This document shows, piece by piece, positions 1 through 34,582 of a stretch of 40,665 nt of DNA. The stretch comes from a virus. Its lineage: Duplodnaviria > Heunggongvirae > Uroviricota > Caudoviricetes. Under the pieces are notes generated by a model, which saw nothing but the letters and a program-made list of their open reading frames with translations, had not been told where the DNA came from and did no database searches. Where the stretch lies: the IMG/VR virus record IMGVR_UViG_2660238524_000003. The stretch is one strand, 5' to 3'. Made by a program: the position numbers and the translations under genes. Each line of letters starts with the position of its first letter. The first letter of the stretch is position 1.

Positions 1-1293
<1,293 letters not shown>

Positions 1294-1598: not shown

Positions 1599-1739
1599 TT
1601 ACTGCTTACACTGTAAGAACGCCGCAAACTCCGCTCCCCAGAAACTCATCCGTATTTCACACAGCGAACCGTGCAGCATCCAGATGATGAGGATTGCCGT
1701 CACGCAGAATGTGATGGCCGTAAGCGATTTTTGCGACAT
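1599..1739 (-). CDS. Hok/Gef-family small membrane toxin (type I toxin-antitoxin)
   Basis: 46-aa ORF read manually (MSQKSLTAITFCVTAILIIWMLHGSLCEIRMSFWGAEFAAFLQCKQ), below the ORF-track cutoff. Hydrophobic N-terminus and SLCEIR...AAF motif resemble Hok/HokA; AAGGAG 8 nt upstream of ATG. Confidence 0.6.
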   Translation of the reverse strand: MSQKSLTAITFCVTAILIIWMLHGSLCEIRMSFWGAEFAAFLQCKQ

Positions 1740-9092: not shown

Positions 9093-9131
9093 AAAAACCG
9101 CTAATGGTCAGATTAGCGGTTTTCATTTTCC
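9093..9131 (+). terminator. terminator after U, convergent with invertase 3' end
   Basis: Hairpin aaaccgctaat/attagcggttt (9095-9122) followed by T-rich run. Confidence 0.5.
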
Positions 9132-9712: not shown

Positions 9713-9766
9713 ACTGAATCTCCCGTCCAAAAGCGCAAATCATGCCATGCAGGCCAGAAACGGCCA

Positions 9767-9792
9767 TTATTTAAAACCTCGGTTTACGAGAA
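9767..9792. other. gix/hix-like crossover site (left)
   Basis: TTATTTAAAACCTCGGTTTACGAGAA, a 26-bp imperfect palindrome with the AAACC-NN-GGTTT core of Gin/Hin/Cin sites as recalled. Confidence 0.6.
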
Positions 9793-10488
9793 CTCGGCAC
9801 AAGCGGGGAGAAAATACCGTTACTCAGTACAGCGAATACCTGGACCAATCGACAAACATTCAGCGGTGGCCTTTCTGGGGAACTGTCCGGCAATGCCGCT
9901 ACTGCAACAAAGCTGAAAACAGCACGAAAAATTGCTGGAGTTGGTTTTGATGGTTCTAGCGATATTTCAATTAGTGCCAAAAATGTCAATGCATTTGCAC
10001 TCCGACAAACAGGTAATACTGTTAATGGTGATACATCCGTTGGATGGAATTGGGATAGTGGTGCATATAACGCCATGATTGGTGGTGCATCTGCATTAAT
10101 TCTTCACTTTAATATAAATGCTGGTAGCTGTCCTGCCGTACAATTCCGTGTGAATTATAAAAATGGTGGCATTTCCTACAGGTCGGCTCGTGATGGTTAT
10201 GGGTTTGAATTAGGTTGGTCAGATTTCTATACCACGACACGAAAACCTTCAGCGGGAGATGTTGGTGCATATACGCGGACAGAATGTAACTCAAGGTTTA
10301 TTACAGGTATTCGCCTTGGCGGTCTGTCATCTGTTCAGACATGGAATGGTCCCGGCTGGTCTGACAGGTCAGGTTATGTCGTTACGGGTTCAGTTAACGG
10401 AAACCGTGATGAATTAATTGATACAACACAGGCAAGGCCAATTCAGTATTGCATTAATGGGACGTGGTATAACGCGGGGAGTATTTAA
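9775..10488 (+). CDS. alternative tail-fibre C-terminal variable cassette, silent in this orientation
   Basis: Frame open from 9775 with no start codon; encodes ...[29 protein letters not shown]..., parallel to but diverged from the expressed H C-terminus. Confidence 0.75.
   Translation, partial: NLGLRELGTSGEKIPLLSTANTWTNRQTFSGGLSGELSGNAATATKLKTARKIAGVGFDGSSDISISAKNVNAFALRQTGNTVNGDTSVGWNWDSGAYNAMIGGASALILHFNINAGSCPAVQFRVNYKNGGISYRSARDGYGFELGWSDFYTTTRKPSAGDVGAYTRTECNSRFITGIRLGGLSSVQTWNGPGWSDRSGYVVTGSVNGNRDELIDTTQARPIQYCINGTWYNAGSI
9776..9878. repeat. left inverted repeat of invertible segment
   Basis: 9776-9845 is an exact reverse complement of 12531-12462; identity continues with one mismatch to 9878/12429. 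Confidence 0.9.
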
Positions 10489-10490
10489 CG

Positions 10491-11024
10491 ATGATGCACT
10501 TAAAAAACATTACTGCTGGCAACCCTAAAACAAAAGAGCAATACCAGCTAACAAAGCAATTTAACATCAAATGGCTTTATTCAGCTGATGGAAAAAACTG
10601 GTATGAGGAACAAAAGAATTTCCAGCCAGACACTTTGAAAATGGTCTATGACCATAACGGCGTTATTATTTGTATTGAAAAGGATGTTTCAGCAATTAAT
10701 CCGGAAGGCGCAAGCGTCGTTGAATTACCTGATATTACAGCAAATCGCCGGGCTGATATTTCGGGGAAATGGATGTTCAAAGATGGCGTAGTGGTAAAGC
10801 GAACTTATACCGAGGAAGAGCAGAGGCAACAAGCGGAAAATGAAAAGCAGAGCCTGTTGCAACTTGTCAGGGATAAAACTCAGCTATGGGACTCACAGCT
10901 ACGGCTGGGCATCATTTCCGACGAGAATAAACAAAAATTAACCGAGTGGATGCTCTATGCGCAGAAAGTCGAATCCACAGACACCTCCAGCCTGCCAGTA
11001 ACATTTCCCGAACAACCTGAATGA
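10491..11024 (+). CDS. tail fibre assembly protein, alternative copy
   Basis: 177 aa, MMHLKNI... paralogous to the 11053-11580 copy. Confidence 0.85.
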   Translation: MMHLKNITAGNPKTKEQYQLTKQFNIKWLYSADGKNWYEEQKNFQPDTLKMVYDHNGVIICIEKDVSAINPEGASVVELPDITANRRADISGKWMFKDGVVVKRTYTEEEQRQQAENEKQSLLQLVRDKTQLWDSQLRLGIISDENKQKLTEWMLYAQKVESTDTSSLPVTFPEQPE

Positions 11025-11027
11025 GAC

Positions 11028-11058
11028 AAGGCCCGATAACGGGCCTTAATTTTTATTC
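11028..11058. terminator. stem-loop between convergent assembly genes
   Basis: ggcccg-ataa-cgggcc hairpin (11030-11045) followed by T-rich run. Confidence 0.45.
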
Positions 11059-11580
11059 AGGCTTTTGTGGCCATTCAGGATTTGCCGTATCCACACGGTT
11101 GACCAGAACACTGTAGCGTTCCCATGCTTCCAGTCGTGTGCGTTCCTCGTCTGTTGCCATATTCAGCCTGACAGCGCGTTCCAGCGGCTGGATGACTGAT
11201 TCAGCTTCGGAAAGCAATGCGGCCTTTTGTGATTCGGCCTGTTGTTGCTGTTCGTCAGCCGTATAAATCCGTTTAACCACAGCTCCGTCCTTAAACATCC
11301 ACTTACCGGAATCATCGGTCCGACGATTGGCCGTTATATCGGGAACCTCGACGACGCTAAAACCTTCGGGATTAAGCGTGGAGGCATCTCTGGTGATGGC
11401 GACAATAATATTATTTTCATCGTAAACAATCTTTATGGTGTCTGGCTGAAAGTTTTTCACTTCCTCATACCAGTTTTTTCCGTCCTCAGAGTAAAGCCAG
11501 ATAACTCCGTGTTTCTTTGTTAACTCATACTGTTCCAGTGTTTTAGCATTACCCGCTTTTATGTTCTTTAAGTGCATCAT
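11053..11580 (-). CDS. tail fibre assembly protein (expressed orientation)
   Basis: 175 aa, immediately downstream of H on the same strand. Confidence 0.88.
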
Positions 11581-11581
11581 A

Positions 11582-13804
11582 TTAAACGCTCGCTACATTA
11601 TACCAGGTGCCATTTATATACTTTTGAACGGGTCTGTAATAAACACCCGCTATATTATCGGCAGAGTTAGACCCTGTATCCTGAACATTAATACCAGACA
11701 ATACATGACCTGAAGGGCACTGGAAATTCCATGTTCGCCAGTTGTTCACTCCATAATATTGCTGTGAACCAAGTCGAACATCTTTCACATAACGGGAATC
11801 AAAGTTACCGTAATCCGAGGGATTAACACGCCCCGTAATATTTATGGTCTTATTACTTTGAATGCTTCCGGGAACAAAGCGCATAACATGGACGTAATTA
11901 GCATAAACATCCAGATTACCATCGCCATTTTGTTTAAAGCCCGTGTCATTATCACCCAATACAATCGAATTACCGCCAAGAGCACTGGATGTTCCGATAC
12001 CCAGTGCACCATTCAGTTGACCACCAGATAACGGCAGTGCACCAACATCTCCTGCTGAAGGTTTTCTGGTGGTGGTGTAAAATTCGGACCAGTCGGCTTC
12101 AAAACCATAACCATCACGGGCTGAACGATAAAAAATACCGCCATTTTTATAATTAATCCGAAACTGAGCTGCAGGACAACTTCCGTCTCCCATATAAAAA
12201 TGAATAATTAACGTTGATGCACCACCAATATTTGCGTTATAGGCTCCGCTACTCCAGTTCCATCCAACTGCTTTATCATTCGCAACGGTGCTTCCTGTTT
12301 TCCCTAAGGCAAACGCACCAACATGACTTGCTTTTAATGTGATATCGGAGGAACCATCAAAAGCCACATTGCTTATTTTCCTGGCAGTTTTTAATTTTGC
12401 AGCTGTAGAAGCATTGCCGGATAGTTCACCAGAAAGGCCACCGCTGAATGTTTGTCGATTAGTCCAGGTATTCGCTGTACTGAGTAACGGTATTTTCTCC
12501 CCGCTTGTGCCGAGTTCTCGTAAACCGAGGTATTCGATAACGGCAGCAACGGTCGATTTCGCAAGAATATCCCGCCCGACTTTTGTCAGGGTTGCCAGGC
12601 TGGCGACATCATTCCCCGTAAAATACGGAAACTTGCCTGCCGCAGTAGTAAGTCCGGCCAGCGCCGTCAGGGTGGCATCTTTCGGTTGCTTACCCGCAAG
12701 CGCGTTAGTCATGGTGGTCGCAAAATTCGGGTCGTTGCCCAGCGCCGCAGCCAGCTCGTTCAGCGTGTTCAGTGCATCAGGTGACGAATCTACAAGGGCG
12801 GCAATCGCAGCCATAACGAAAGCCGTGCTTGCGATTTGGGTATTATTCGTTCCCTGTCGCGCAGTTGGTGTTGTTGGCGTTCCGGTCAGTGCAGGACTAT
12901 TTAAGGGCGCTTTCTTGTTCGTTTCATCCATTACCGCCTTAACAGCTTTCGATGTCGCGGCCAGTGTTTCAGACGTGCTGTTGGTGGCACTACTGAGCTG
13001 GACTATCCCTTTTTGTGCCGTCGTGGCGTCCTGAGCGGTATATTTTGCGTTAGCAAGGTCATACGCGGCCTTTACTGCTTTCGGCGTTGCAGCCTGCGTT
13101 TCAGACGTGCTGTTGGTGGCGCTACTGAGCTGGACAAGGCCTTTTCGCGTCGTGCTGGCATCCTGCGCAGTATATTTACCGTTAGCAAGGTCATACGCGG
13201 CCTTTACTGCTTTCGGCGTTGCAGCCTGCGTTTCAGACACGCTGTTAGTGGCGCTACTGAGTTGAACAAAGCCTTTTGCGGTCAGCGAGGCGTCCGGGTG
13301 ACGTCGTGACTGTTCATGCTCTTTCAGTTTGTCATCCACGTAATCCACTGTGGCCATCACCATGGTGTTATCCACGGTAAGCACCACGGTGGCAGTGCTG
13401 GATACGGTCAGAATGGTGCGAAATGTTTGTGCACGACCGGACCCTTCGGCAACGGCTGGCTTGTAACTTTCGGCAGTATTGCCCACCGCGATTAAATCGC
13501 CGTGCTCATCAAATACACCAATTTCCCGGATCCAGAATCCGCCCGTTTCAGGAGGAATAACCAGCTCCGCAATAATGCGGTTCTGATGTGTTGCGTCCAG
13601 GATGACGCGATTAACAGTATGTCGCCACACCTCATGCACCAGACGGGTCTGCTTACTGTCTGGTGTGGGCAACGTGCCGCCACCGTCGCCCACGGCCATA
13701 TGAGTCAGGCGGACAGGCTTACCATCTGGCGCGGCTGCCTGAGCTAATTTTTTGGCACCCGTATCGGTGATAACGGTTTTAAATTTACGTGTTGTGGTAC
13801 TCAT
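11582..13804 (-). CDS. tail fibre protein H
   Basis: 740 aa; N-terminus resembles P2 H. The C-terminal ~310 codons lie inside the invertible segment. Confidence 0.92.
12429..12531. repeat. right inverted repeat of invertible segment
   Basis: Reverse complement of 9776-9878; gix-like site at 12515-12540. Confidence 0.9.
12934..13330. repeat. three tandem 132-bp repeats inside tail fibre gene
   Basis: gtttcagac(g/a)... recurs at 12966, 13098 and 13230; encodes three 44-aa repeats (...[33 protein letters not shown]...). Confidence 0.75.
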
Positions 13805-17273: not shown

Positions 17274-19151
17274 TTATGCTGCGGGATTATTGATTTCCAG
17301 CACCAGGCTGCCGATATCGACGCCGTACGCGGCATTTTTAGTGATATCAGTTAACGTCAGCGCATTCAGCCCCAGTGTCAGACTGTCTTTTATGACCTGG
17401 AATGCCGGGCCAGCCACTCCATTCAGTTTCGGAGTAACCGTGGCACTGCCGGCGGTGAACACCAGCTCCAGCGTCTGCCAGTCGTTACTGTAATTCCCGA
17501 ACTCGCCCAACTTTGTGTTTCCTGCTTTCTTGTGATGCATCAGATTCAGTTTGCCGTCTGTGGTCTGGGTGAAGAACGACATCAGGAACGGGTTACCAGT
17601 CCCGGTCATCGCCACGACGTCAGGTAACGCTACATCGGTATACAGATAAATTCCCAGACCGAACTGATTGTTGGTCAGTGCGCCTGACAGTCGAAACTTA
17701 CAGCTCAGTCTGCCACCCCGTGTCAGCAGGGAGACTGCGTCATCCACCGGGCGCGTCAGGGACCAGGCTTTATTGCTCTGCTTGGTGATCTTAAATACAC
17801 CCTCTGACAACTGAATTCCGCCATTCTTAATGCTCCAGCCCTGCGCAGCAGCATCTCCGGCTGTCGGCAACAGGGAGATTGTGCGTACGGATGCATCTTC
17901 AGACGGCCCCGATGGCGTGTCGCCGCCGGGCGAGGGTTTGATTTCCGGTGCCTTACCACTGATGAAGGCTAAGGTGCGACCGGCTACGTTCAGAATAGCG
18001 GTTGCCATACGATCGGGAATAATGCCACGACGCGCCCATGAGCTGAAATGCGTCTGGCGATTTGATGATACCCAGTTTTTGTTCGTTCGGGATGCCGAAC
18101 CGTAATATCCCTCACTTGCAGCATCCGGATCTTCCGTTGGTGCGTTGGTGGAGGTATTGTTGCCACTACCATCGGTCAGGAACGGCACAAAGAAAACGTT
18201 GTCGCTCTCCCTGTTTTTGTACGCCCCGTAAATGGTGTCGTACTGCGTGCCGTAGGTGTTTTTCCAGTAATACGTCGTGTCACCACAAATCCATGGCACA
18301 CTTGCCGCTCTGCCTCCATGACACTGCGTGTTAAACTCGGTAATGTCCGCACGAAACTGTTTCAGCATGGCCGTAAACAGCGGAGGTTGCTGTGAGTACG
18401 TAGCGGCGCTCATGTCAAATTCGCCCTGCATCCAGCATACGGCCAGCAGCATGTTTTTTGGGTTTTTCTGCAATGCGGCCTTCGTGCGCAAAATCAGGTC
18501 CTGATATAAAGGTTTACCCACACCCCAGCGAGCCGAATCCTGACTGGCTCCTGTGGACTCGCTGAATGTCCCCTCCGCGCCCTGGGTGAATGCCGAACCA
18601 CCACGACAGCATGGAACCAGTAAAATCCCGGCATTCTGTGGAATGTAAGGCAACAGGCGTTTGGCAATATGCAAGCCCTGTCCGACACAGCCATACTGCC
18701 CTTTGCTCAGGTCTGCATTCGGGTGATTCAGTGCGCTCATATCCTGAACATCATGCAGGCAGTGGTCTGCCGGAATGATGTCGTTAAATGCGCATGCTTT
18801 ACCACCGGGAGTCACTGTGTTGCGACGGGCCAGTTGCTTAATGCGTGGGTGGGGCGCATCGTAAGAATCCGGCAGCGGCATTCCCTCACCATATGACATG
18901 GCATTGGATTGACCAGCAAGTACCACCACGTAATACCACTCCGGCACGCTGCCGTGCTGGGGGGAATCAGGTGAGATGTCTGTAGTGCCATCGGCCACCA
19001 TTGCCTGCATTAGATACCACGGGGTGCCGGGTTCGTAGGCAACCCGCGTCTCCCCCTGAAGATGCCACCCTTTCGCAAGATGTTCATTCACCTTTTGAGT
19101 CAGTTCAGCCTGTGTCATGGCTGTAATCAGTGCAAAGTTCTTACTGGTCAT
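17274..19151 (-). CDS. SGNH-hydrolase esterase, sialate O-acetylesterase (NanS-p)-like cargo protein
   Basis: 625 aa; GQSN block-I motif (VVVLAGQSNAMSYGEG) of the SASA esterase family, with N-terminal extra domain and long C-terminal domain. No P2 equivalent between lysC and R. Confidence 0.7.
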   Translation of the reverse strand: MTSKNFALITAMTQAELTQKVNEHLAKGWHLQGETRVAYEPGTPWYLMQAMVADGTTDISPDSPQHGSVPEWYYVVVLAGQSNAMSYGEGMPLPDSYDAPHPRIKQLARRNTVTPGGKACAFNDIIPADHCLHDVQDMSALNHPNADLSKGQYGCVGQGLHIAKRLLPYIPQNAGILLVPCCRGGSAFTQGAEGTFSESTGASQDSARWGVGKPLYQDLILRTKAALQKNPKNMLLAVCWMQGEFDMSAATYSQQPPLFTAMLKQFRADITEFNTQCHGGRAASVPWICGDTTYYWKNTYGTQYDTIYGAYKNRESDNVFFVPFLTDGSGNNTSTNAPTEDPDAASEGYYGSASRTNKNWVSSNRQTHFSSWARRGIIPDRMATAILNVAGRTLAFISGKAPEIKPSPGGDTPSGPSEDASVRTISLLPTAGDAAAQGWSIKNGGIQLSEGVFKITKQSNKAWSLTRPVDDAVSLLTRGGRLSCKFRLSGALTNNQFGLGIYLYTDVALPDVVAMTGTGNPFLMSFFTQTTDGKLNLMHHKKAGNTKLGEFGNYSNDWQTLELVFTAGSATVTPKLNGVAGPAFQVIKDSLTLGLNALTLTDITKNAAYGVDIGSLVLEINNPAA

Positions 19152-26917: not shown

Positions 26918-27442
26918 TTACCAGAGTTGAACCATTTTCTGGGTGCCGTCAGGCTTGAGATTATCAATTTCAGAGAGAACGTAATATTGAATGGCTTCAC
27001 AAACGGTGGTGTAGGGTGAATTACCTTCTTTAAGTGGCACGATATTATTATTAACGCGAACCTGTATTTCATCGTTATACATTGCGATCGAAACAGGAGT
27101 GTGCACGAACGCGACTTCGCCAGGTGTGTCGTCAACCACCGTTTCAATACTAAAAGTCAGTTTTCGCTCATCATTGCTGCCCCGTGCTTTGGGGGTAGCG
27201 GCAGGGATCTGGGATAAAGGCATTCTGCGAAATCCTTCGGCTGCTTCCAGTCCGCATGAAACGTAATGCTGGCGATTACCGTCGCTATCTGTCCAGGTCT
27301 GTGATGGCAGCTCCAGCGAGATTTCATAAGCATCAACAATGCCCTGGGCAAGGCGTACAAGCGGGGTCAGATCTTCATTGCGGCGAAAGCTCTCCTTTAC
27401 CTGCTCCCGTTTTTCTCTTAACTGCTTGTAATTAATGACCAT
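26918..27442 (-). CDS. hypothetical protein (cargo between portal gene and cos-like region)
   Basis: 174 aa from ATG 27442 with GGAGG RBS 8 nt upstream; no family recognised. Confidence 0.6.
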   Translation of the reverse strand: MVINYKQLREKREQVKESFRRNEDLTPLVRLAQGIVDAYEISLELPSQTWTDSDGNRQHYVSCGLEAAEGFRRMPLSQIPAATPKARGSNDERKLTFSIETVVDDTPGEVAFVHTPVSIAMYNDEIQVRVNNNIVPLKEGNSPYTTVCEAIQYYVLSEIDNLKPDGTQKMVQLW

Positions 27443-27817
27443 AAGACAGCCTCCATTGATTTCTTTGCTCGTATTTTGCACTTATGAAGTATGGTCGGCA
27501 AGGTGCCGTATCGCTGACGCGCTTCGCTTGTCTGCTGCTTCGCCGGGGCATAAAAAATTTATGCCCCGGCTCTCCAGCTCCTGTATCAATCAGATAATTT
27601 CACGACGCCTTCCAGTTTATCGCCACCATCGACGGTCAGACTCTTACGCAATTCCACCGCGTTGACTGCATGTTCTCGCTGCCTCAGTGCGATTTTGACG
27701 GCCTTACCTTTCACCCCATCAAATCAAAAGCCCTCACGCCTTTTTCATGCTCAGCGTGAGAAATATGGCCATTCTGTTGTGTCTCTGCGACATCGTTCAG
27801 GGAATGCTATTTACCCC

Positions 27818-27835
27818 CTGAAACGCGGGCTGTTC
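27818..27835 (-). other. candidate cos-like sequence
   Basis: - strand GGTGACGGGGGAACAGCC loosely resembles the P2 cohesive end as recalled (GGCGAGGCGGGGAAAGCAC). Confidence 0.2.
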
Positions 27836-27941
27836 CCCCGTCACCTGCGCGCAGAAAAAGCGCGTTTTTTTGTGCACGCACGGATCCTTGACGGATCCAG
27901 CCGCCATGCGGGCCGGAAGGGTAAAAAGTCGTTCAAAAAAA

Positions 27942-27968
27942 TTGTGCAAATTTGTGCACTTTTGTGCA
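27942..27968 (+). repeat. three tandem 10-bp TTGTGCA repeats
   Basis: TTGTGCA at 27942, 27952 and 27962 (exact 10-bp phasing), just upstream of a TTGACC -35-like element. Confidence 0.7.
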
Positions 27969-27988
27969 GGTAAGCATGCCTATATATT

Positions 27989-28020
27989 TGACCGTGGCTT
28001 GCCTTTGATGTAGTTTATAC
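27989..28020 (+). promoter_or_regulatory. candidate promoter of cargo locus
   Basis: TTGACC followed ~17 nt later by TAGTTT/TATAC. Confidence 0.3.
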
Positions 28021-28068
28021 GTCACAAAAACCACAAAACGTGGTTATGATTTCTATGAGGGGGTTGAT

Positions 28069-28104
28069 ATGAAAAAAATGTATGATGAATTTGATGGTTT
28101 CTAA
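28069..28104 (+). CDS. 11-codon leader micro-ORF (MKKMYDEFDGF)
   Basis: GAGGGG RBS 6 nt upstream; followed 20 nt later by a strong terminator. Confidence 0.3.
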   Translation: MKKMYDEFDGF

Positions 28105-28123
28105 GCTACGTTGACCTCTAATG

Positions 28124-28151
28124 AGGCGGGGATTTGCTCCCCGCCTTTTTT
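28124..28151 (+). terminator. rho-independent terminator upstream of cargo gene
   Basis: gaggcgggga/tccccgcc 8-bp GC stem followed by T6. Confidence 0.7.
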
Positions 28152-28165
28152 ATGGATGAAATAGG

Positions 28166-28663
28166 ATGAACCCAATAACACTACAAATCATCAGCAATGC
28201 TATTGTTCTGCTTGGCGTTTTGGTTGCCATTGGAACCATTATCTACAATGTGCGTACCGCAAAAAAAACTCAAACGGCCAACTTTCTTTTTGAGAGTCGG
28301 CAAGATATGCAATATATAGAGTCATTGCATACCCTGAAACAAGTGCATCGTTCAGGCAAATCATTTCGTTCTTATGTTTTTCCTTGTGATGGTTGCATAA
28401 TAACAGATGAAGAAATGGCCGAGCGTCGAAAATTTCAATATATTTTAAATTTTTACGAGCGAGTTGCTGTAAGTATTCGTGAAGGTATTTATGATGAAAA
28501 AATGATAAAAAGAACATCTTACACAACAGTTGTAGAGACATATGATATTGCCGAGCCATTAATTAAAGCAATCAGAGAAAGCATTAATTCGGATACTACA
28601 TATCAAGAATTCGAATGGTTAGTAAGAAGATGGAAAGCTAATCCTTTACGGAAAAACAAATAA
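28166..28663 (+). CDS. membrane-anchored hypothetical protein (cargo gene 1)
   Basis: 165 aa; N-terminal TM helix (ITLQIISNAIVLLGVLVAIGTIIY) then a charged domain; AT-rich codon usage unlike the phage core. Confidence 0.7.
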   Translation: MNPITLQIISNAIVLLGVLVAIGTIIYNVRTAKKTQTANFLFESRQDMQYIESLHTLKQVHRSGKSFRSYVFPCDGCIITDEEMAERRKFQYILNFYERVAVSIREGIYDEKMIKRTSYTTVVETYDIAEPLIKAIRESINSDTTYQEFEWLVRRWKANPLRKNK

Positions 28664-28874
28664 TGTTTTACCCTTTAATTTACAAGTAACACAGGGGGAA
28701 GTGTGACACAGAATCCGTTTTCATTTTATGACTTTTTGGGCTATCTAATTCCAGGTGGGTTATTCCTGTTTATCCTTTTTTTGTTTTCTATTGAAATTAA
28801 CCCTGTTTATATAGAAGGTATTCTTAACCATATCCTGAAATATAAAGAAATAATAAGTGTATTTATATATGTGG

Positions 28875-28882
28875 TATTAATC
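28875..28882. repeat. IS1 target-site duplication (left copy)
   Basis: TATTAATC immediately left of the IS1 end. Confidence 0.85.
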
Positions 28883-28897
28883 GGTAATGACTCCAAC

Positions 28898-29401
28898 TTA
28901 CTGATAGTGTTTTATGTTCAGATAATGCCCGATGACCTTGTCATGCAGCTCCACCGATTTTGAGAACGACAGTGACTTCCGTCCCAGCCTTGCCAGATGT
29001 TGTCTCAGATTCAGGTTATGCCGCTCAATTCGCTGAGTGTAACGCTTGCTGATTACGTGCAGCTTTCCCTTCAGGCGGGATTCATACAGCGGCCAGCCAT
29101 CCGTCATCCATACCACGACCTCAAAGGCCGACAGCAGGCTTAGAAGACGCTCCAGTGTGGCCAGAGTGCGTTCACCGAATACGTGCGCAACAACCGTCTT
29201 CCGGAGCCTGTCATACGCGTAAAACAGCCAGCGCTGGCGCGATTTAGCCCCGACGTATCCCCACTGTTCGTCCATTTCCGCGCAGACGATGACGTCACTG
29301 CCCGGCTGTATGCGCGAGGTTACCGACTGCGGCCTGAGTTTTTTAAATGGCGGAAAATCGTGTTGAGGCCAACGCCCATAATGCGGGCGGTTGCCCGGCA
29401 T
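28898..29401 (-). CDS. insB: IS1 transposase InsB
   Basis: 167-aa ORF recognised as IS1 InsB; made as an InsAB' frameshift fusion. Confidence 0.9.
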
Positions 29402-29595
29402 CCAACGCCATTCATGGCCATATCAATGATTTTCTGGTGCGTACCGGGTTGAGAAGCGGTGTAAGTGAACTGCAGTTGCCATGTTTTACGGCAGTGAGAG
29501 CAGAGATAGCGCTGATGTCCGGCGGTGCTTTTGCCGTTACGCACCACCCCGTCAGTAGCTGAACAGGAGGGACAGCTGATAGAAACAGAAGCCAC
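29320..29595 (-). CDS. insA: IS1 InsA
   Basis: 91-aa ORF ([23 protein letters not shown]...) recognised as IS1 InsA. Confidence 0.9.
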
Positions 29596-29650
29596 TGGAG
29601 CACCTCAAAAACACCATCATACACTAAATCAGTAAGTTGGCAGCATCACC

Positions 29651-29658
29651 TATTAATC
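29651..29658. repeat. IS1 target-site duplication (right copy)
   Basis: TATTAATC immediately right of the IS1 end. Confidence 0.85.
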
Positions 29659-29721
29659 GTTCTATCATATATTTCAGGTCACTTCATATCTATTCTATCA
29701 TCCTGTTTAATTGAAAAATAC

Positions 29722-30321
29722 ATGAACAGTAAACTTGGGTATCCTTCAATTTATCTGTTTTCTAAAAGAAGCTCCCTGAAAATAAAACGACATAATACTA
29801 AGTTCAGTATAGTTAATTTTATTCGTGGAGTTTTTTTATTTCCTGTATCAGCTTTTGATAAAGCAGAACATCATAAAACCACACTGCATTCTATACTTAT
29901 TAAAGTCTTTTGGCCGCAAATACGAGATGGTTATATAAATGTTTTTTCTGTATCTACGCTATATCGACGTAAGGGCTTGAGGGGCGATCTTTTTCGCCTT
30001 GCTTATCATTATGTGTATGAACATTCTAAAAATCATCAGGTGAAAATGCAAAACTATGTTGCTTTGTATGGTTTTTGTAGAAACATTACATTTGTTTTTC
30101 TCGCTTCAGTCTGGTTGCTTATGTTCCTGCTCCTTCTATCCTTTTTAATAGATATAAATATCAGACTGTTACCTTTTTGTTTTCTTCTCTTGTTTTGTAT
30201 TGCTGCATCCCGAGTATTTTATTATGGTTTTGTTAAGTATTATCGCCGCTATTCTCTTGAGGTTTTAATGGCATTTGCGGTACTTCAGCACGATAAAAAA
30301 ACTTCGGCAATTTCATCATGA
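29722..30321 (+). CDS. C-terminal ORF of the IS1-split membrane protein gene
   Basis: 199-aa ORF from an internal in-frame ATG; C-terminal TM helices; no obvious SD. Confidence 0.5.
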   Translation: MNSKLGYPSIYLFSKRSSLKIKRHNTKFSIVNFIRGVFLFPVSAFDKAEHHKTTLHSILIKVFWPQIRDGYINVFSVSTLYRRKGLRGDLFRLAYHYVYEHSKNHQVKMQNYVALYGFCRNITFVFLASVWLLMFLLLLSFLIDINIRLLPFCFLLLFCIAASRVFYYGFVKYYRRYSLEVLMAFAVLQHDKKTSAISS

Positions 30322-30404: not shown

Positions 30405-30719
30405 TTATTCTGGGAATAAGGTCTGAATATTCTTTTTTATTTTATAAAAATTGCATTCAACTCCGCTAGGCTGATTATCCTGGTATGTTTCCTTGATGCT
30501 AACGGTATTGAAGGGGAGGTTGTCCTCTGGCCATTCGGCCATCCAGTAGGCAAATGCTGGGTTGCGCTTTATGAGCGCTAGCCCAGCCAGAAAGGCCGCG
30601 CGTTGCGCGCGGCTGCGTTCGGAGGCTGGCAGGCTATCGAGGTAATTGCACGCCTCCTGTTCACTCTTGACGGCGGCGGGCTTCAGATAGAAACTTATCC
30701 GTCTGGTTGGTGTCGTCAT
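30405..30719 (-). CDS. ParR/StbB-like centromere-binding adaptor
   Basis: 104 aa from ATG 30719 (AAGGAG RBS), directly downstream of the ParM-like gene; ...LDSLPASERSRAQRAAFLAGLAL... resembles R1 ParR as recalled. Confidence 0.65.
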   Translation of the reverse strand: MTTPTRRISFYLKPAAVKSEQEACNYLDSLPASERSRAQRAAFLAGLALIKRNPAFAYWMAEWPEDNLPFNTVSIKETYQDNQPSGVECNFYKIKKNIQTLFPE

Positions 30720-30723
30720 TGGT

Positions 30724-31683
30724 TTACTCCTTGTCCATTGCGTACAGCCCATTAACCAGAGCAAACTGTGGCACCCCGTCCGCGATGAAAGTCGCATTAA
30801 CTCCGCAGACTTCGCGGATAGCGGGTGCCACAATCTCCGCCCCTCCACCGACAACCATCACCCGCCCGTAACCCGAAAAAACCGCCAGCGCGCGGATCAC
30901 GCGTTGTTTCAGTGTTTCTTCCTTTTCACGAATAACCGCCATCAGGCTGGCGTAATGCGCGTCATTGTGGATGTGCTGGCGCAGCCAGGCTTCATCATGG
31001 CGATGTTCGATAATGGTATTGGCGATGTGGTGACTGGTGCGCATACCGTTAGTGGCCATCACCGACAGTACGGCATCGGCCATCAGGGAAACGCCTACGT
31101 GTGGATCGCAAAACACCTGGCTGATACCTGCCAGTTGCCCTTGAACCTTTGCCACATCCAGCGTGGTTCCGCCTAAATCCACAATCAGCAGGGATTCAAA
31201 CGGACTCATGTCAGCCAGTGCTTTAAAGCCAGCCGGAATGGATTCAGGCATAACCCGCACGTTACGGATAGTGAATGCTTCGCCGTTCTGGTATTCCACC
31301 GGGCGCATAACGTTCGCTTTTTTGCGGTTGATGTTGGCCATGTCCGGCTGTGCGTTTGTGTCGAAATACTCGCTCAGTGGCAGGGTGACAACCACATCCA
31401 CCTCCTGTGGCGTGATGCCTGATTTGACCAGCGCGTGATGAATGGCGATTACATTCACATCGCTGTACTGGTATTGCGTGTCGGTCGTCTGGACAAAGCG
31501 ATCGCTAACCGGATCAAAACCATAGCGCACGCCATCAAGCATGTAGTTCGCGGGCTGCATGCCACCGAACGGCGCAGACCATTCCGACTTGAAGCTGTTC
31601 GGGCTGATGGCGTTGCGGCGTTCGCCATTCTCAGTCCATGCCAGCTTGATGTTGGTGGAGCCGTCGTCGATACAAATTTTCAT
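30724..31683 (-). CDS. ParM/StbA-like actin-family partition ATPase
   Basis: 319 aa; N-terminal MKICIDDGSTNIKLAW and later blocks (VMPESIPAG, IVDLGGTT, VGGGAE) match the ParM/StbA actin fold. Confidence 0.85.
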   Translation of the reverse strand: MKICIDDGSTNIKLAWTENGERRNAISPNSFKSEWSAPFGGMQPANYMLDGVRYGFDPVSDRFVQTTDTQYQYSDVNVIAIHHALVKSGITPQEVDVVVTLPLSEYFDTNAQPDMANINRKKANVMRPVEYQNGEAFTIRNVRVMPESIPAGFKALADMSPFESLLIVDLGGTTLDVAKVQGQLAGISQVFCDPHVGVSLMADAVLSVMATNGMRTSHHIANTIIEHRHDEAWLRQHIHNDAHYASLMAVIREKEETLKQRVIRALAVFSGYGRVMVVGGGAEIVAPAIREVCGVNATFIADGVPQFALVNGLYAMDKE

Positions 31684-31714
31684 GTCGCTTTTCCTTATGT
31701 TGATTAATTAATCG

Positions 31715-31826
31715 TTTACGGGATTCTGAAATCCCGTTTTTGCCTGTTTTGTGCGCGCTTCATATATCGCTGCGCGTTTTTTGCTCATTTACGGGATTCG
31801 TAAGTCCCGTTTCTGTCTGTTTTTTG
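31715..31826. repeat. two ~39-bp palindrome-containing direct repeats upstream of the ParM-like gene
   Basis: TTTACGGGATTCTGAAATCCCGTTT (31715-31753, intergenic) and TTTACGGGATTCGTAAGTCCCGTTT (31788-31826, within the 3' end of gene A), 73 bp apart. Confidence 0.6.
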
Positions 31827-34582
31827 TTTCCACTGGTCAGGCCACCCCGCAGCAGGTCTGCTTTGCGGCTGGCGCGTTCAGTGGTTTCACTGATTCTCTG
31901 TGCGTGCTCTGCGTCGCGGATGGCGCGCAGCATGTCAGAAAGCACGGTAACGGGTGTTTTCATGGTGTTCTGGCCCTGCTGAAGTGTGGATGCCAGGCGT
32001 GCGGCGGCTTCAGGGTCTGATGCCCCCAGCTGTGCCAGATAGCTGGCGACCGGGTTATGGCGGATCTCCGTGCTGCTTACGCCATGATTACGGCTCAGGC
32101 GCTGCCAGAGCTGCGTGATTCGGCTGTCCGGGCGGGTATCCGGTTTGCGTACAATTTCAAATCCCTGCGGTGCAATGATGCTGCCGTCAACGTACAGACT
32201 GCCGCCCCGTAACAGGTGCTGCATCTGTTGTTCACCGATATGCAGGCCGAGAGATTCAGCAGACTCCCGCCATTCTTTAGCGAGTAATTCGTGGTTATCA
32301 GGCAAAGGCCGCTGCTGTTTGCGGCTCTGTGTCCAGCTCTGCATTTCATCGCTGCTGTTTTTTGCCTGTTTGTCACGAAGCGAACGCATCAGCGCCCGGC
32401 GTTCGTGTCGTTTCAGTGAGCGCATCCATTCGTTCACTTCAACGCCGTCAGGGAGCTGCGGCCACGGTGCTGGCCGTTCTTCCGGCTGTTCTGTCCCGTT
32501 GTTGTCCGTTTCCTGTACACGGGGACAGTTATTGCCACGAGTCCAAGGGGCGGCAGGGCCGCCCTGAAGGTCAAAACCATTTTCGCGGGCGCTGTCTTCC
32601 GCTTCCGGTTTACGTCTTACCAGCTTCCAGTTATCCGGATGCGTGCACACACGGGAGGATTCCCCGATGAGTGGTGACCAGATCCCGTAAATCTGTACGC
32701 TCTGTTCGCCGTAATCGTTCAGCTCATCTGCGAGGTCGTAGGCGGTGCGAATCAGGTAGTCCTTGCGTGGAACAAGCACGCCACCCTGTTTTTCAATGTA
32801 GGTGGCAAAACACCCGGCATCGGCGGCAGCGAGTACCGCATCCATTGCATCATCTTTCAGCCGTTGCGGGCCTTCCGGATTGCGTGCCATCTGGCTGGCA
32901 AGGCGGCGCAGTTCACGCCACACCTGACGGGAGGGGATGCCAAAGAACTGGAACTGACGGACCCGGTGAAGGCGCGCCCAGCCGATGGCGCGCTCCACGC
33001 TCTCGGCCATTGATTTTCCGGTTTCGTGGTCCACGCGTGGCTTGCCCGTTTTCGGGTCGATGCCATCCACGGCGCGGCTGTCCAGGTTCTTTCCGATGTA
33101 GGTGGCGATGTAGCTGGTTGGCGTGCCTTTTGAGCCGTCGACATACTCCACCTTAAAGCGCGGAGTAATATCATTGCCCAGCTCGTGGCGGTCTTCCTGA
33201 ATGGCAATATCGCGGGTATGGGACACAATGGTGTCGATTTCTTCCGGATGTGCAAAGACCATCATATGCCAGTGCACGGTGCCGTCATGATGAGGCTCCA
33301 CCGTGCGGATGCCATACCAGCGCAGGCCGTCGCGGTTCAGTTTTTTGCGGACCGCCGCAAAAAACGTGTTAACCAGGTAATCGCTGGAGTCGCGCATTGT
33401 GGCCCCGTTCCATTTGGGATTCGGATGACCGTTCTCCGTTGTGGCGTGGTATTTTGACGGGCAGGTGACAGTCAGAAACACCGCTTTGTCGCCACGGGCT
33501 TCGGCCAGAAGTTCCAGTCCCTTCATGGTGGCCATCATTTCTGCCTTACGGTGAACCGGGTTACTTACTCCCGCGTAATACACTGTCTCGAGATCAATCG
33601 TGAACCCGTCTTCATTTTCCAGCATGAAACTTTTCAGGAAATCGCGTGTTTTCTCGCGCTGTGCGCGAAACTCGCTTAACGCGTCCTGGCTCAGATAGGG
33701 TGATGTTTTTCTGGAAACCAGACAGGCGGCGCGGAGTTGTTCTTCTCTCCACTCGCAACGTAACAGCCACAGTTTGCGTTTCCACCATTCCGCACAGGTC
33801 AGGCGAAGGATTGCGCCCGGCAGCAGCTCCGTGTCCGGTTCGTTCCTCCGGTCTTTGTCTGTTGTCAGTGCGTCATAATGTGGAGGCATGGCGTGCAGGT
33901 GTAACGCCATGCGGGCCAGCATCTGATACGCCTTCAGGGTTACATCCATGGTCAGCTCGCCATCGGTCGCGCCAAAGCCATCGCAGAGTTTTTCGAAGGT
34001 GCTGCTGAACATCGCCGCCGTCATGGTGGCCAGCGTCTGTATCTGGTGTTTGTTGAGCTGCGGCAGGTAAAGCAAATCGTCCAGGCGTTCGCGTCCGGCA
34101 AGGGAGCGATAACCCGGTGTCAGCCAGCGTCCGTCAGTGCTATCCAGACGTTCGAATATTTTGCGCAGGGTTCCGCGTGCATAGCGTTCCGCCTGCCAGC
34201 TCTTTTTGCCTTTCCGGCGATCGGCTTCCTGTTTTTTGCGCAGGAAGGAGAGGTGGCGAATAAGCGGATCGCGCAGATAGGACGGCAGCAGGCGCAGCGA
34301 GGCCATGGCTTCATCCACCGCGCCACGTGCCTGTTTTCTGGCGTCTCCTGCCAGTGTGATGGTTTTGTCCTGTTTTTCCTGTGCGTCCAGGCTTTTATTA
34401 ATCAGGTTGCCCAGCGGCGTGGCTGAGAACGCCGCATCAGCCATTTCCTGGCGGCGCTCGTTCTCTGCCCGGTAGGCATCCAGCCAGGAGGAAAGCGCGG
34501 ATTCAGGAGCGGGGATCCCCGTTCCTTCACGCCCCACTGCGTGGCGCGGTTGTTGCCAGTCCCTGAGGTACTCTGCCGTCAT
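31760..34582 (-). CDS. replication initiation endonuclease A (rolling-circle)
   Basis: 940 aa; H-x-H metal motif (HWHMMVF) and position as in P2-like phages. Confidence 0.88.
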   Translation of the reverse strand: MTAEYLRDWQQPRHAVGREGTGIPAPESALSSWLDAYRAENERRQEMADAAFSATPLGNLINKSLDAQEKQDKTITLAGDARKQARGAVDEAMASLRLLPSYLRDPLIRHLSFLRKKQEADRRKGKKSWQAERYARGTLRKIFERLDSTDGRWLTPGYRSLAGRERLDDLLYLPQLNKHQIQTLATMTAAMFSSTFEKLCDGFGATDGELTMDVTLKAYQMLARMALHLHAMPPHYDALTTDKDRRNEPDTELLPGAILRLTCAEWWKRKLWLLRCEWREEQLRAACLVSRKTSPYLSQDALSEFRAQREKTRDFLKSFMLENEDGFTIDLETVYYAGVSNPVHRKAEMMATMKGLELLAEARGDKAVFLTVTCPSKYHATTENGHPNPKWNGATMRDSSDYLVNTFFAAVRKKLNRDGLRWYGIRTVEPHHDGTVHWHMMVFAHPEEIDTIVSHTRDIAIQEDRHELGNDITPRFKVEYVDGSKGTPTSYIATYIGKNLDSRAVDGIDPKTGKPRVDHETGKSMAESVERAIGWARLHRVRQFQFFGIPSRQVWRELRRLASQMARNPEGPQRLKDDAMDAVLAAADAGCFATYIEKQGGVLVPRKDYLIRTAYDLADELNDYGEQSVQIYGIWSPLIGESSRVCTHPDNWKLVRRKPEAEDSARENGFDLQGGPAAPWTRGNNCPRVQETDNNGTEQPEERPAPWPQLPDGVEVNEWMRSLKRHERRALMRSLRDKQAKNSSDEMQSWTQSRKQQRPLPDNHELLAKEWRESAESLGLHIGEQQMQHLLRGGSLYVDGSIIAPQGFEIVRKPDTRPDSRITQLWQRLSRNHGVSSTEIRHNPVASYLAQLGASDPEAAARLASTLQQGQNTMKTPVTVLSDMLRAIRDAEHAQRISETTERASRKADLLRGGLTSGNKKQTETGLTNPVNEQKTRSDI

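What the first reader, a model, noticed from the sequence alone, without database searches (positions are those of the whole stretch)
30405..31826. ParM/ParR-like actin-type partition cassette inside an integrated P2-like prophage
A ParM/StbA-like ATPase and a small ParR-like protein follow replication gene A on the same strand. Two copies of a ~39-bp element containing the palindrome ACGGGATT...AATCCCGT flank the region upstream of the ParM-like gene, one intergenic and one in the last codons of A, which could be a centromere/operator. Canonical P2 has no partition system, so this lineage may be able to persist as a plasmid or use the actin homologue otherwise.
Basis: partly seen in the sequence, partly recalled or inferred. 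Interest (0 to 1): 0.7.

Follow-up and report, generated by a model that had tools for sequence, protein, structure and literature searches.

The report
ParMRC partition module in P2-like prophage
A widespread integrated P2-like E. coli prophage (P88 type) carries an intact plasmid-style actin (ParM/ParR) DNA-segregation cassette, with a conserved pair of palindromic sites, welded to its replication gene; the genes are already annotated in databases, but why an integrating phage keeps them has not been studied.

Summary
On the minus strand, gpA (34582..31760) is followed by a 319-aa ParM (31683..30724; about 55% identical to R1 ParM by inspection of the alignment, motifs intact) and a 105-aa ParR (30722..30405; PF10784; profile hit to pB171 ParR). 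Two 42-nt repeats lie 73 bp apart. Each holds ACGGGATT-N4-AATCCCGT. One is intergenic; one is in the last codons of gpA.

The window is a P88-like (Xuanwuvirus) prophage next to host serS. The cassette occurs in 1304 of 5426 complete E. coli genomes, at 1442 chromosomal and 2 plasmid places. It is present in exactly the 14 phage records with this gpA type. parM is under purifying selection (dN/dS 0.03-0.14). The gpA-parM-parR order also occurs in P2-like prophages of Hafnia, Plesiomonas, Serratia and Enterobacter, whose ParMs form clades apart from plasmid ParMs (53% identity or less).

GGG-N10-CCC pairs spaced 72-73 bp recur upstream of parM in three divergent lineages. This supports a bipartite centromere or operator.

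Best reading: a type II partition module acting on excised, replicating phage circles, as AlpAC does in prophage CGP3. Plasmid lysogeny is poorly supported. PGAP, RefSeq and PHROGs already annotate the genes; I found no functional study.

The parts
30724..31683 (-). parM: 319-aa actin-fold cytomotive ATPase (ParM/StbA family)
   Evidence: Pfam StbA_N E 2.7e-82 and ParM_N (C-terminal domain) E 1.1e-68. Full-length alignment to R1 ParM 1mwk, E 1.1e-92, with nucleotide-binding motifs conserved. PHROG 691 'partition protein' E 6e-90. dN/dS 0.03-0.14 against relatives.
30405..30722 (-). parR: 105-aa ribbon-helix-helix adaptor (StbB/ParR family). Its start codon lies 4 nt after the parM stop. The N-terminal strand is RRISFYLKP and the conserved C-terminal tail is N-I-x-x-LFPE.
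   Evidence: Pfam Plasmid_stab_B E 8e-29. PHROG 2515 E 1e-54. A profile of 8 ParR sequences hits pB171 ParR 2jd3 at E 2.5e-14. Alignments.
31712..31753 (-). Proximal 42-nt repeat unit in the gpA-parM intergenic region. It contains the perfect palindrome ACGGGATT-N4-AATCCCGT at 31718-31737, with its GGG 52 nt before the parM ATG. Candidate ParR-binding half of a bipartite parC or operator.
   Evidence: Found at -52 in 76 IMG/VR loci. Arms nearly invariant, central 4 nt variable.
31785..31826 (-). Distal 42-nt repeat unit inside the last ~20 codons of gpA. Its palindrome at 31791-31810 has one mismatch here and is perfect in most relatives. Its GGG lies 125 nt before the parM ATG, 73 bp from the proximal site.
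   Evidence: The equivalent second site is at -128 in Hafnia and -131 in Plesiomonas.
31684..31711 (-). Leader of parM: a conserved AT-rich GATTAATTAATCAA box (31700-31713 on the + strand) and the Shine-Dalgarno AAGGAAA (31690-31696). TTAATCAA plus the SD are shared with the Hafnia and Plesiomonas loci.
   Evidence: Sequence. Nearly invariant in 76 unique upstream variants. No sigma-70 match of 9/12 or better here.
31760..34582 (-). gpA: P2-type rolling-circle replication initiator (940 aa). It is the gene to which the cassette is strictly linked, and it carries the distal palindrome in its 3' end. A P2-type ori nick motif lies at about 32530-32555.
   Evidence: Pfam Phage_GPA E 4.9e-131. 30% identity to P2 gpA. 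The P2 nick-site sequence matches window 32530-32555. Linkage of gpA type with parM.

Best explanation
This is a complete, selectively maintained type II (ParMRC-type) DNA-segregation module. It is a core part of the replication block of P88-like (Xuanwuvirus) P2-like phages, not variable cargo.

Shown:
- ParM is an intact R1-type actin-like ATPase.
- ParR is a ribbon-helix-helix StbB/ParR adaptor, apparently translationally coupled to parM.
- Upstream lie two conserved 20-bp palindromes 73 bp (seven helical turns) apart, straddling the gpA stop codon.

Inferred mechanism:
1. ParR dimers bind the two palindromes, and possibly the A-tract DNA between them, to build a segrosome.
2. The conserved ParR C-terminal tail captures the ends of ATP-ParM filaments.
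3. The filaments elongate by insertion and push palindrome-bearing DNA molecules apart.

Inferred setting: the genes follow gpA on the same strand, with no gene-strand terminator and no recognisable promoter of their own. They are therefore probably expressed with the early replication operon. They would act on the excised, circular, rolling-circle-replicating phage genome by spacing, positioning or evenly distributing the circles. That would aid replication or packaging, or the inheritance of excised circles, as shown for AlpA/AlpC of prophage CGP3. The module is probably not there to maintain a plasmid prophage.

The confidence given (0.55) is for the whole statement including the inferred setting; the identity of the module as a ParM/ParR cassette on its own I would put at about 0.9.
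For: - Family identity.
- Strict linkage to the phage replication gene. The 14 phage records with gpA at 85% identity or more are exactly the 14 with ParM. The other 370 gpA-bearing phage records (gpA below 60% identical; 43% or less among those listed) have none.
- The gpA-parM-parR order is conserved in P2-like prophages of Hafnia, Plesiomonas, Serratia and Enterobacter. gpA and ParM diverge in parallel: Plesiomonas gpA is 56% identical and its ParM 62%.
- Phage-borne ParMs form two clades with 100% bootstrap, separate from plasmid ParMs, which are 53% identical or less.
- Purifying selection on parM: dN/dS 0.03-0.14.
- The palindrome pair is conserved in position and spacing in three lineages (-52/-125, -55/-128, -59/-131) against a background of 0.1-0.6 motifs per kb.
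- 110 of 120 IMG/VR loci with the exact palindrome have it at these positions before parM, and 5 more are cut at contig ends beside gpA.
- The arms are conserved, the central 4 nt are free, and arm changes are uncompensated. This fits a protein-binding site better than an RNA stem.
- The site is not the replication origin. The P2-type nick motif lies about 750 bp away.
- The usual state is integrated: 1442 of 1444 places in E. coli.
- Functional precedent: AlpAC of the integrated prophage CGP3 is induced early, binds repeats upstream of its operon, and is needed for full levels of circular phage DNA (PMC4446434).
Against: - No experiment or expression data exist for this cassette. ParR binding to the palindromes, filament formation and the timing of expression are all inferred.
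- Only two sites are visible. R1 has ten 11-bp iterons and pSK41 has tandem 20-bp repeats (PMC5016525).
- No sigma-70 promoter was detected between or beside the sites, unlike the R1 parC-promoter arrangement.
- On the opposite strand both repeat units score as intrinsic-terminator-like: a hairpin followed by a T-run.
- Clade B prophages (Serratia, Enterobacter) have parMR but a different upstream repeat layout.
- Truncated parM products are common in the protein collection (clusters of 649 and 555 members). The gene can therefore decay in resident prophages.
- The CGP3 precedent showed only a two-fold effect.
Confidence: 0.55

Rival explanations
1. Facultative plasmid prophage. After infection or excision the phage genome can be kept as a low-copy episome, replicated by gpA and partitioned by ParMRC. 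This would make the lineage a latent phage-plasmid.
For: A complete partition cassette lies next to the replication initiator. One 34,461-bp circular 'plasmid' record, pZ1323PEC0009-2, is an entire P88-like phage genome with int, cox, gpA and parMR. Phage D6, a P1-like plasmid prophage, uses a StbA/ParM homologue that is 48% identical.
Against: 1442 chromosomal against 2 plasmid places in 5426 complete E. coli genomes. Only 1 phage-sized circle appears among 72,556 PLSDB records, and of the other hits, those I inspected are assembly fragments or captured fragments. The integrase, Cox and att site are retained. A separate circular contig can also arise from spontaneous induction in the sequenced culture. 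I know of no evidence that P2-type rolling-circle replication by a cis-acting initiator supports copy-controlled plasmid maintenance (background knowledge).
Confidence: 0.13
2. The repeated elements are not a centromere. They are tandem intrinsic terminators (or RNA hairpins) on the antisense (+) strand. They would stop transcripts from the convergently oriented lysogenic-conversion cargo genes from running antisense into gpA. ParR would then bind elsewhere or nowhere.
For: Both units match the terminator pattern on the + strand: an 8-bp stem, a 4-nt loop and a T-rich tail. They account for 2 of the 7 terminator-like sites in 1.8 kb, against 2.4 expected. The hairpins are more stable than shuffled sequence, z about -2.3 to -2.8. 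The cargo genes at 28166-30321 are on the + strand, and the hairpin after them has no T-run on that strand.
Against: In Hafnia and Plesiomonas only GGG-N10-CCC and the 72-73 bp spacing are kept. The stems shrink to 3-4 bp and there is no T-tail, so terminator function is not what is conserved. Arm substitutions are never compensated. The sites lie 1.3 kb beyond the cargo genes, and one is inside a coding region. There is no Rfam match. The two roles are not mutually exclusive in the E. coli lineage.
Confidence: 0.12
3. A lysogen-expressed accessory ('moron') function. ParMR made from the integrated prophage would act on other DNA. Examples are destabilising or excluding plasmids or phages with a cognate centromere, or ParR serving mainly as a transcriptional repressor.
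For: The cassette borders the variable cargo region that corresponds to P2 tin/old. parR itself is mosaic, with two alleles that diverge after codon 19 or so. Centromere-based incompatibility is known for type II systems (Dam and Gerdes 1994, cited in PMC5016525; PMC9426499).
Against: No PADLOC defence-model hit. parM and the palindromes are invariant core features of the lineage, whereas the true cargo varies. The closest plasmid ParMs are 53% identical or less, and their loci lack the palindrome pair, so no cognate plasmid target is evident. No promoter for lysogenic expression was detected.
Confidence: 0.1
4. A non-functional relic of an old plasmid-phage recombination that is simply hitch-hiking.
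For: Truncated parM products are frequent in the protein collection. Many resident P2-like prophages are defective, for example gpM has an internal stop in strain 4/1-1.
Against: dN/dS is 0.03-0.14. Motifs are intact. Synteny is retained across at least five genera at 54-62% ParM identity. The cassette is present in all inducible or isolated phages of the lineage, such as P88 (PMC5285337).
Confidence: 0.03

Closest known systems
ParMRC (parA/stb) type II partition locus of plasmid R1/NR1
   Same: Same gene order, parC-parM-parR. ParM aligns end to end with R1 ParM (E 1.1e-92; about 55% identical by inspection) and all nucleotide-binding motifs are present. ParR belongs to the same Pfam family and has a conserved C-terminal tail like the ParM-binding tail of R1 ParR (R1 ParR sequence from memory). 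The repeated sites lie immediately upstream of parM.
   Different: The R1 centromere is ten 11-bp direct iterons in two blocks flanking a strong autoregulated promoter (PMC5016525). Here there are two 20-bp palindromes 73 bp apart, one inside the upstream gene, with no recognisable promoter. The carrier is an integrating rolling-circle phage, not a low-copy theta plasmid.
ParR of plasmid pB171 (PDB 2jd3)
   Same: The only solved structure hit. The ParR profile matches over the full length at E 2.5e-14, covering the N-terminal ribbon-helix-helix and the helical domain.
   Different: The single-sequence match is weak (E 0.012). The phage ParR is shorter (105 aa against 130 aa). Its DNA target has not been determined.
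AlpA/AlpC/alpS of Corynebacterium glutamicum prophage CGP3
   Same: An actin-like ATPase plus a DNA-binding adaptor, encoded by an integrated prophage. The adaptor binds repeats upstream of its own operon. The genes are early after induction and are required for full levels of circular phage DNA (PMC4446434). This is the functional model adopted here.
   Different: The adaptor gene comes first (alpA-alpC) and there are 24 short TTAAnnG repeats. The host is Gram-positive and the phage type is unrelated. Sequence relationship to AlpC/AlpA was not tested here. The window proteins are orthodox R1-type ParM and ParR.
StbA-type partition protein of phage D6 (P1-like plasmid prophage)
   Same: The only other phage record with a detectable ParM homologue (47.8% identity, annotated 'StbA type plasmid stability protein').
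   Different: D6 is a 91-kb phage. That it lysogenises as a plasmid is background knowledge for P1-like phages. There the partition role is the classical one. The window phage is a 34-kb integrating P2-like phage.
Phage P2 (Peduovirus P2) region downstream of gene A
   Same: Same overall early-operon layout and the same position between A and the portal gene Q. The ori nick motif lies inside gene A.
   Different: P2 has orf91, tin and old there and no partition genes. P2 gpA is only 30% identical and lacks the C-terminal ~145 residues that carry the distal palindrome.

Membership tests
Type II (ParMRC) partition system | Actin-fold ParM/StbA ATPase with phosphate-1, phosphate-2, catalytic and adenosine motifs | tested here: met
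   Pfam StbA_N 274.9 bits (cut-off 24.6) and ParM C-terminal domain 230.8 bits (cut-off 27.4). Full-length alignment to R1 ParM with DDGSTNIK, PESIPAG, DLGGTTLD and GGGAE conserved.
Type II (ParMRC) partition system | Small ribbon-helix-helix adaptor ParR encoded directly downstream of parM in one operon | tested here: met
   Pfam Plasmid_stab_B 99.7 bits (cut-off 25). The profile hits pB171 ParR at E 2.5e-14. The start codon is 4 nt after the parM stop and is preceded by AAGGAG.
Type II (ParMRC) partition system | Centromere parC: an array of repeated ParR-binding sites immediately upstream of parM, normally overlapping the operon promoter | tested here: inconclusive
   Two conserved palindromes lie at -52 and -125, and the same layout occurs in three lineages. 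There are only two sites, they are palindromic rather than tandem iterons, no promoter was detected, and binding cannot be tested here.
Type II (ParMRC) partition system | ParR C-terminal tail binds ParM; ParM forms dynamically unstable filaments | not testable with these tools
   A C-terminal N-x-x-x-LFP motif is conserved in all phage-borne ParRs despite a divergent middle region. This is suggestive only.
Type II (ParMRC) partition system | Stabilises an autonomously replicating low-copy replicon on which it resides | tested here: not met
   The carrier is an integrated prophage: 1442 of 1444 places in complete E. coli genomes are chromosomal, and the window is flanked by host serS. Stabilising activity itself was not testable.
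Phage-plasmids (P1, N15, D6 type) | Lysogeny as an extrachromosomal replicon with plasmid replication and partition genes, usually without chromosomal integration | tested here: not met
   Integrase, Cox and chromosomal att are present. There is one phage-sized circular record among 72,556 plasmids. No plasmid-type Rep is seen in the annotated prophage genes, where gpA is the only replication initiator annotated.
AlpAC-type prophage actin system (CGP3) | Prophage-encoded actin-like protein plus adaptor, expressed early on induction and needed for efficient replication of circular phage DNA | not testable with these tools
   The gene content and the position at the end of the early replication operon fit. 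Expression and phenotype are unknown. Homology to AlpC/AlpA was not tested.
Anti-phage defence cargo of the P2 tin/old hotspot | Match to a known defence-system protein model; variable presence among related phages | tested here: not met
   No PADLOC hit for ParM, ParR or three neighbouring ORFs. parMR is invariant in the lineage, while the genes downstream of it vary.

The most novel reading that the evidence does not exclude
P88-like phages are facultative episomes. After excision, or after infection of a cell lacking a free attB, the genome persists as a low-copy circle replicated by gpA and actively segregated by ParMRC. About a quarter of E. coli strains would then carry a latent phage-plasmid with an actin spindle whose centromere is partly embedded in the replication gene.
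Probability: 0.12. Interest if true: 0.75.

Novelty: new member of a known kind. Interest (0 to 1): 0.42.

Why it matters
The cassette sits in about 24% of complete E. coli genomes. It is under strong purifying selection and has been linked to the P2-type replication initiator across several enterobacterial genera. Yet an integrated prophage has no obvious need for a plasmid partition machine.

If it positions or segregates excised phage circles, it would be, as far as my searches show, the first such case studied in a Gram-negative host, and a genetically very tractable counterpart of CGP3 AlpAC. P88 is inducible with mitomycin C (PMC5285337). It would also show that a well-understood actin-like motor is a regular part of a temperate phage's replication cycle.

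It offers a compact, possibly minimal two-site centromere for studying ParR-ParM coupling.

It also raises a practical question: whether prophage-encoded ParM and ParR cross-talk with the ParMRC systems of IncF and R1-type resistance plasmids in the same cells.

Tried and rejected
- Replication origin. I asked whether the palindromes are the P2-type ori. They are not. The P2 nick-site motif (annotated in NC_001895) maps to window ~32530-32555, about 750 bp upstream.
- Known RNA element. No Rfam match at E up to 1.
- Defence system in the P2 hotspot. No PADLOC hits.
- Own promoter. The consensus scan found no sigma-70 site of 9/12 or better in the gpA-parM gap. By eye I found no Ogr-type TGT-N12-ACA motif either.
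- Large 'plasmid' hits as evidence of episomal life. pC-Ec2-KPC is an IncC plasmid that captured prophage pieces through IS26. The Shigella record is a linear IS1-ridden fragment. pZ1323PEC0009-2 is not in the E. coli genome collection, so I could not check its chromosome for a second copy.
- The search for related loci with the single ParM protein returned only 3 near-identical loci. I obtained the divergent lineages through the protein search and contig look-ups instead.
I replaced it with a profile search of PDB sequences.
- Literature. Searches for P88, Xuanwuvirus, Peduoviridae, P2-like or CP-933T together with ParM or partitioning found no study of this cassette. O157 proteome and transcriptome supplements gave no usable data on these two genes.
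- RNA-stem covariation. Arm substitutions are uncompensated, so I dropped an RNA-structure reading.
Full report
**1. What is there**

Everything in the finding lies on the minus strand. Replication gene A runs 34582..31760 (940 aa, Pfam Phage_GPA E 4.9e-131). A 76-bp gap follows. Then comes a 319-aa ORF at 31683..30724 that matches both halves of the ParM model (StbA_N E 2.7e-82; ParM C-terminal domain E 1.1e-68).

This ORF aligns from residue 2 to 316 with the crystallised R1 ParM (1mwk, E 1.1e-92). The phosphate-binding, catalytic and adenosine motifs (DDGSTNIK, PESIPAG, DLGGTTLD, GGGAE) are all intact.

The second gene starts at ATG 30722, 4 nt after the parM stop and 8 nt after an AAGGAG. 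It ends at 30405 (105 aa). The longer 149-aa ORF from TTG 30854 overlaps parM and is only a mechanical extension. The protein belongs to Pfam Plasmid_stab_B (StbB/ParR; E 8e-29). A profile built from eight phage, ICE and plasmid homologues hits the solved pB171 ParR over its whole length (2jd3, E 2.5e-14). PHROGs already hold both proteins as 'partition protein' families.

**2. The repeats**

The repeat finder returns a two-copy family of 42 nt at 31712-31753 and 31785-31826. The copies are 83% identical with start-to-start spacing of 73. Each contains ACGGGATT-N4-AATCCCGT. The copy at 31718-31737 is perfect and the copy at 31791-31810 has one mismatch.

With up to three mismatches these are the only two matches in the 40.6-kb window. 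Chance expectation is 0.19, and 2 of 100 shuffles reached two.

**3. Where the window comes from**

Window 1-1293 encodes host serS (protein 100% identical). The whole window matches the chromosome of E. coli 4/1-1 from serS to the phage integrase at 99.99%. The one exception is an IS1 insertion at 28884-29650. In strain 4/1-1 the prophage lies between serS and dmsA. So this is an integrated prophage.

It is a P88-like phage (genus Xuanwuvirus, family Peduoviridae). The cassette region is 96-100% identical to 14 phage records, including P88, Citrobacter phiSM, 520873 and P884B11. RefSeq annotates the genes there as 'plasmid segregation protein ParM' and 'partition protein'.

**4. Distribution**

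- The 1.6-kb cassette is found in 1304 of 5426 complete E. coli genomes, at 1442 chromosomal places and 2 plasmid places. PGAP annotates it as ParM plus 'plasmid partitioning/stability family protein'.
- In PLSDB only 7 of 72,556 plasmid records match at the DNA level. I inspected three of them.
  - One is a 34,461-bp circle that is an entire P88-like genome.
  - pC-Ec2-KPC is an IncC plasmid with IS26-captured prophage pieces.
  - The Shigella record is a linear IS-ridden fragment.
  - The rest are 0.27-1.4 Mb records that I did not inspect.
- At the protein level there is a clear gap. Phage-borne copies are 95% identical or more, while thousands of plasmid ParMs are 53% identical or less.
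- Among phage records, only the 14 P88-type genomes and the P1-like phage D6 (48%) encode a detectable ParM.
- The 14 are exactly the records whose gpA is 85% identical or more to the window's. The other 370 gpA-bearing phages (gpA below 60% identical; 43% or less among those listed, including Fels-2, with P2 itself at 30%) lack ParM.
- P2 itself has orf91, tin and old after A.

**5. An old association with P2-type replication genes**

The protein search found ParMs of intermediate identity. Their contigs show the same gpA-parM-parR order in P2-like prophages. In each case a portal, terminase and capsid block lies just beyond.

| Host | ParM identity |
|---|---|
| Hafnia | 62% |
| Plesiomonas | 62% |
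| Serratia | 59% |
| Enterobacter | 54% |

Homologues at 52% identity or less sit on plasmids or ICEs, next to Rep3, ParA and Tra genes.

In a neighbour-joining tree of 105 full-length ParMs, the phage-borne proteins form two clades, each with 100% bootstrap support: E. coli type + Plesiomonas + Hafnia, and Serratia + Enterobacter. Their union has weak support (57%).

Plesiomonas gpA is 56% identical to the window's gpA over residues 1-696. The initiator and ParM have therefore diverged together. Between E. coli-type copies, parM has dN/dS of 0.03-0.14. The cassette is thus a long-standing, selected core component of this phage lineage. It is neither a recent plasmid capture nor variable cargo.

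The variable region begins inside parR. Identity to P88 falls from about 99% to about 60% after codon 19 and stays low through the cargo genes. The N-terminal strand (RRISFYLKP) and the C-terminal NI..LFPE are nevertheless kept in both alleles.

**6. Are the palindromes a centromere?**

Direct binding cannot be tested here, so I used comparison.

- In all E. coli-type loci, GGG-N10-CCC motifs lie 52 and 125 nt before the parM ATG.
- In Hafnia they lie at -55 and -128. In Plesiomonas they lie at -59 and -131. The spacings are 73, 73 and 72 bp.
- The surrounding DNA is not alignable between these lineages. In Hafnia an extra ORF separates gpA from parM. In Plesiomonas the distal copy again falls in the last codons of gpA.
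- Background density of the motif in these loci is 0.1-0.6 per kb.
- The clade B prophages and the plasmid and ICE relatives have no such pair. Clade B has a different long inverted repeat that shares the GGCAAAAA(C/T)GGGA half-site.
- In IMG/VR, 120 loci carry the exact E. coli-type palindrome. In 110 of them it is at -52 and/or -125 of a parM gene. Five more are cut at contig ends beside gpA, and five are unrelated.
- Across 109 upstream regions (76 unique) the 8-bp arms are almost invariant. The central 4 nt vary freely (TCAG, TAAA, CACA, CACG). Occasional arm changes (CCC to CCT, ATT to ACT) are never compensated on the other arm. This sample was selected for having one exact copy, which inflates the apparent conservation.

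The pattern fits a protein-recognised dyad better than an RNA stem. The sites are not the origin: the P2 nick-site sequence maps to window ~32530-32555, about 750 bp away.

ParR is the obvious ligand, because type II centromeres lie just upstream of parM (PMC5016525). That assignment remains an inference.

The layout also differs from the textbook cases. R1 has ten 11-bp iterons flanking a promoter, and pSK41 has contiguous 20-bp repeats. Here there are two dyads seven helical turns apart, with phased A-tracts between them. No sigma-70 promoter of 9/12 or better is present.

**7. A rival reading of the repeats**

On the + strand, antisense to the genes, both units look like intrinsic terminators: an 8-bp stem, a 4-nt loop and a T-rich tail. 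The hairpins are more stable than shuffled sequence.

The convergently transcribed cargo genes at 28166-30321 could send transcripts this way. However, in Hafnia and Plesiomonas the stems shrink to 3-4 bp and lack T-tails, while the GGG/CCC triplets and their spacing persist. Terminator function is therefore not what is conserved. A secondary role in the E. coli lineage is not excluded.

**8. What the module probably does**

The normal state of this phage is integrated, and an integrated prophage needs no partition. The cassette follows gpA on the same strand, with no gene-strand terminator and no evident promoter of its own. The simplest expectation is co-expression with the early replication operon after induction or infection.

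The closest functional precedent is AlpA/AlpC of the integrated Corynebacterium prophage CGP3. That system is an actin-like protein plus an adaptor that binds repeats upstream of its operon. It is induced early and is needed for full amounts of circular phage DNA, with a two-fold effect (PMC4446434).

I therefore favour a role on excised, rolling-circle-replicating circles. ParR on the dyads would capture ParM filaments, and the filaments would separate or position genome copies for replication, packaging or inheritance.

The plasmid-prophage idea rests on a single phage-sized circular record, and such a record can also arise from spontaneous induction. A lysogen-expressed 'moron' role, such as incompatibility or defence, has no support:

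- There is no PADLOC hit.
- No cognate plasmid relatives are evident.
- The cassette is invariant rather than variable in presence.

A dead relic is contradicted by the selection and synteny data. Truncated parM variants are nevertheless common in the protein collection, as expected if the function serves the phage rather than the host.

**9. Novelty**

The genes are orthodox members of the ParM and ParR families, and PGAP, RefSeq and PHROGs already label them as such. From memory, similar labels date back to the O157 CP-933T annotation, but I could not verify this with the tools.

I found no paper that analyses the cassette in P2-like phages. The P88 paper does not mention it.

Three things are added here. 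First, the strict linkage to one gpA lineage. Second, the phage-specific ParM clades. Third, the conserved bipartite dyad that straddles the gpA stop codon.

I rate it a new, uncharacterised member of a known kind. The biology is moderately interesting and the experiments are easy to do.

Noticed in passing
window 28884-29650: An IS1 copy (InsA/InsB ORFs at 29595..28898) is inserted here. It is absent from the otherwise 99.99% identical prophage of E. coli 4/1-1. It splits a 281-aa hypothetical gene (PHROG 12528) into pieces at 28703-28963 and 29722-30321, and the flanks show a 9-bp overlap consistent with target duplication.
   Followed up: yes
window 26918-30321: The region between portal gene Q and parR corresponds to the P2 tin/old cargo position. 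It holds a DUF4760 protein (28166-28663), a 187-aa ORF (26918-27481, PHROG 5091) and the IS1-split ORF. None matches a PADLOC defence model. Relatives carry different genes here: DUF3800, HicAB, a KAP NTPase, SSB.
   Followed up: partly
window 30405-30665: parR is mosaic. Identity to phage P88 drops from about 99% to about 60% after codon 19, while the N-terminal strand and the C-terminal LFPE tail are kept (56% aa identity overall). About half of the E. coli genomes with the cassette carry the window-type allele (667 of 1304 cover at least 80% of the query).
   Followed up: partly
window 9113-12544: A DNA-invertase-like gene (9113-9730, minus strand; annotated 'recombinase family protein' in strain 4/1-1) lies beside 507-bp inverted repeats (9763-10269 and 12038-12544, 77% identical) that overlap tail-fibre and tail-fibre-assembly genes. 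This looks like a Gin/Cin-type invertible host-range segment.
   Followed up: no
window 31760-32190 (gpA residues ~797-940): The C-terminal ~145 residues of gpA have no counterpart in P2 or in Fels-2/Klebsiella-type gpA; matches in those phages stop at residue ~796. This region is also not conserved in the Plesiomonas homologue. This lineage-specific tail carries the distal palindrome.
   Followed up: partly
window ~32530-32555 (minus strand): The sequence GCCGCCCCTTGGACTCGTGGCAATAACTGT closely matches the annotated P2 ori nick site (GCCGCGCCTCGGAGTCCTGTCAATAACTGT). The rolling-circle origin is therefore probably here, inside gpA.
   Followed up: partly
window 17274-19151 (minus strand): A 625-aa DUF6645 gene sits between the tail-completion genes and the lysis cassette. 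This is probably additional cargo and was not examined.
   Followed up: no
window ~1599-1739 (minus strand): By correspondence with the annotated 4/1-1 record, a Hok/Gef-family toxin gene lies just inside the prophage end next to host serS, followed by ogr.
   Followed up: no
L009 5860-5990 and L010 5860-5990: Serratia and Enterobacter P2-like prophages (ParM clade B) have a different upstream architecture. It is a long inverted repeat, GGGAAC-(G/A)A(A/T)ATAGAAAAAT ... ATTTTTCT(A/G)TTTC-, with a spacer of about 26-30 bp. It shares only the GGCAAAAA(C/T)GGGA half-site with the E. coli type.
   Followed up: partly
L008 (Plesiomonas shigelloides GCA_009183595.1, contig WEKF01000002.1, 32,167 bp): This parMR-bearing P2-like phage is assembled as its own 32-kb contig that ends about 140 bp beyond the 3' end of int. 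That is compatible with a mixed integrated and excised population or an episome. I could not resolve which.
   Followed up: no
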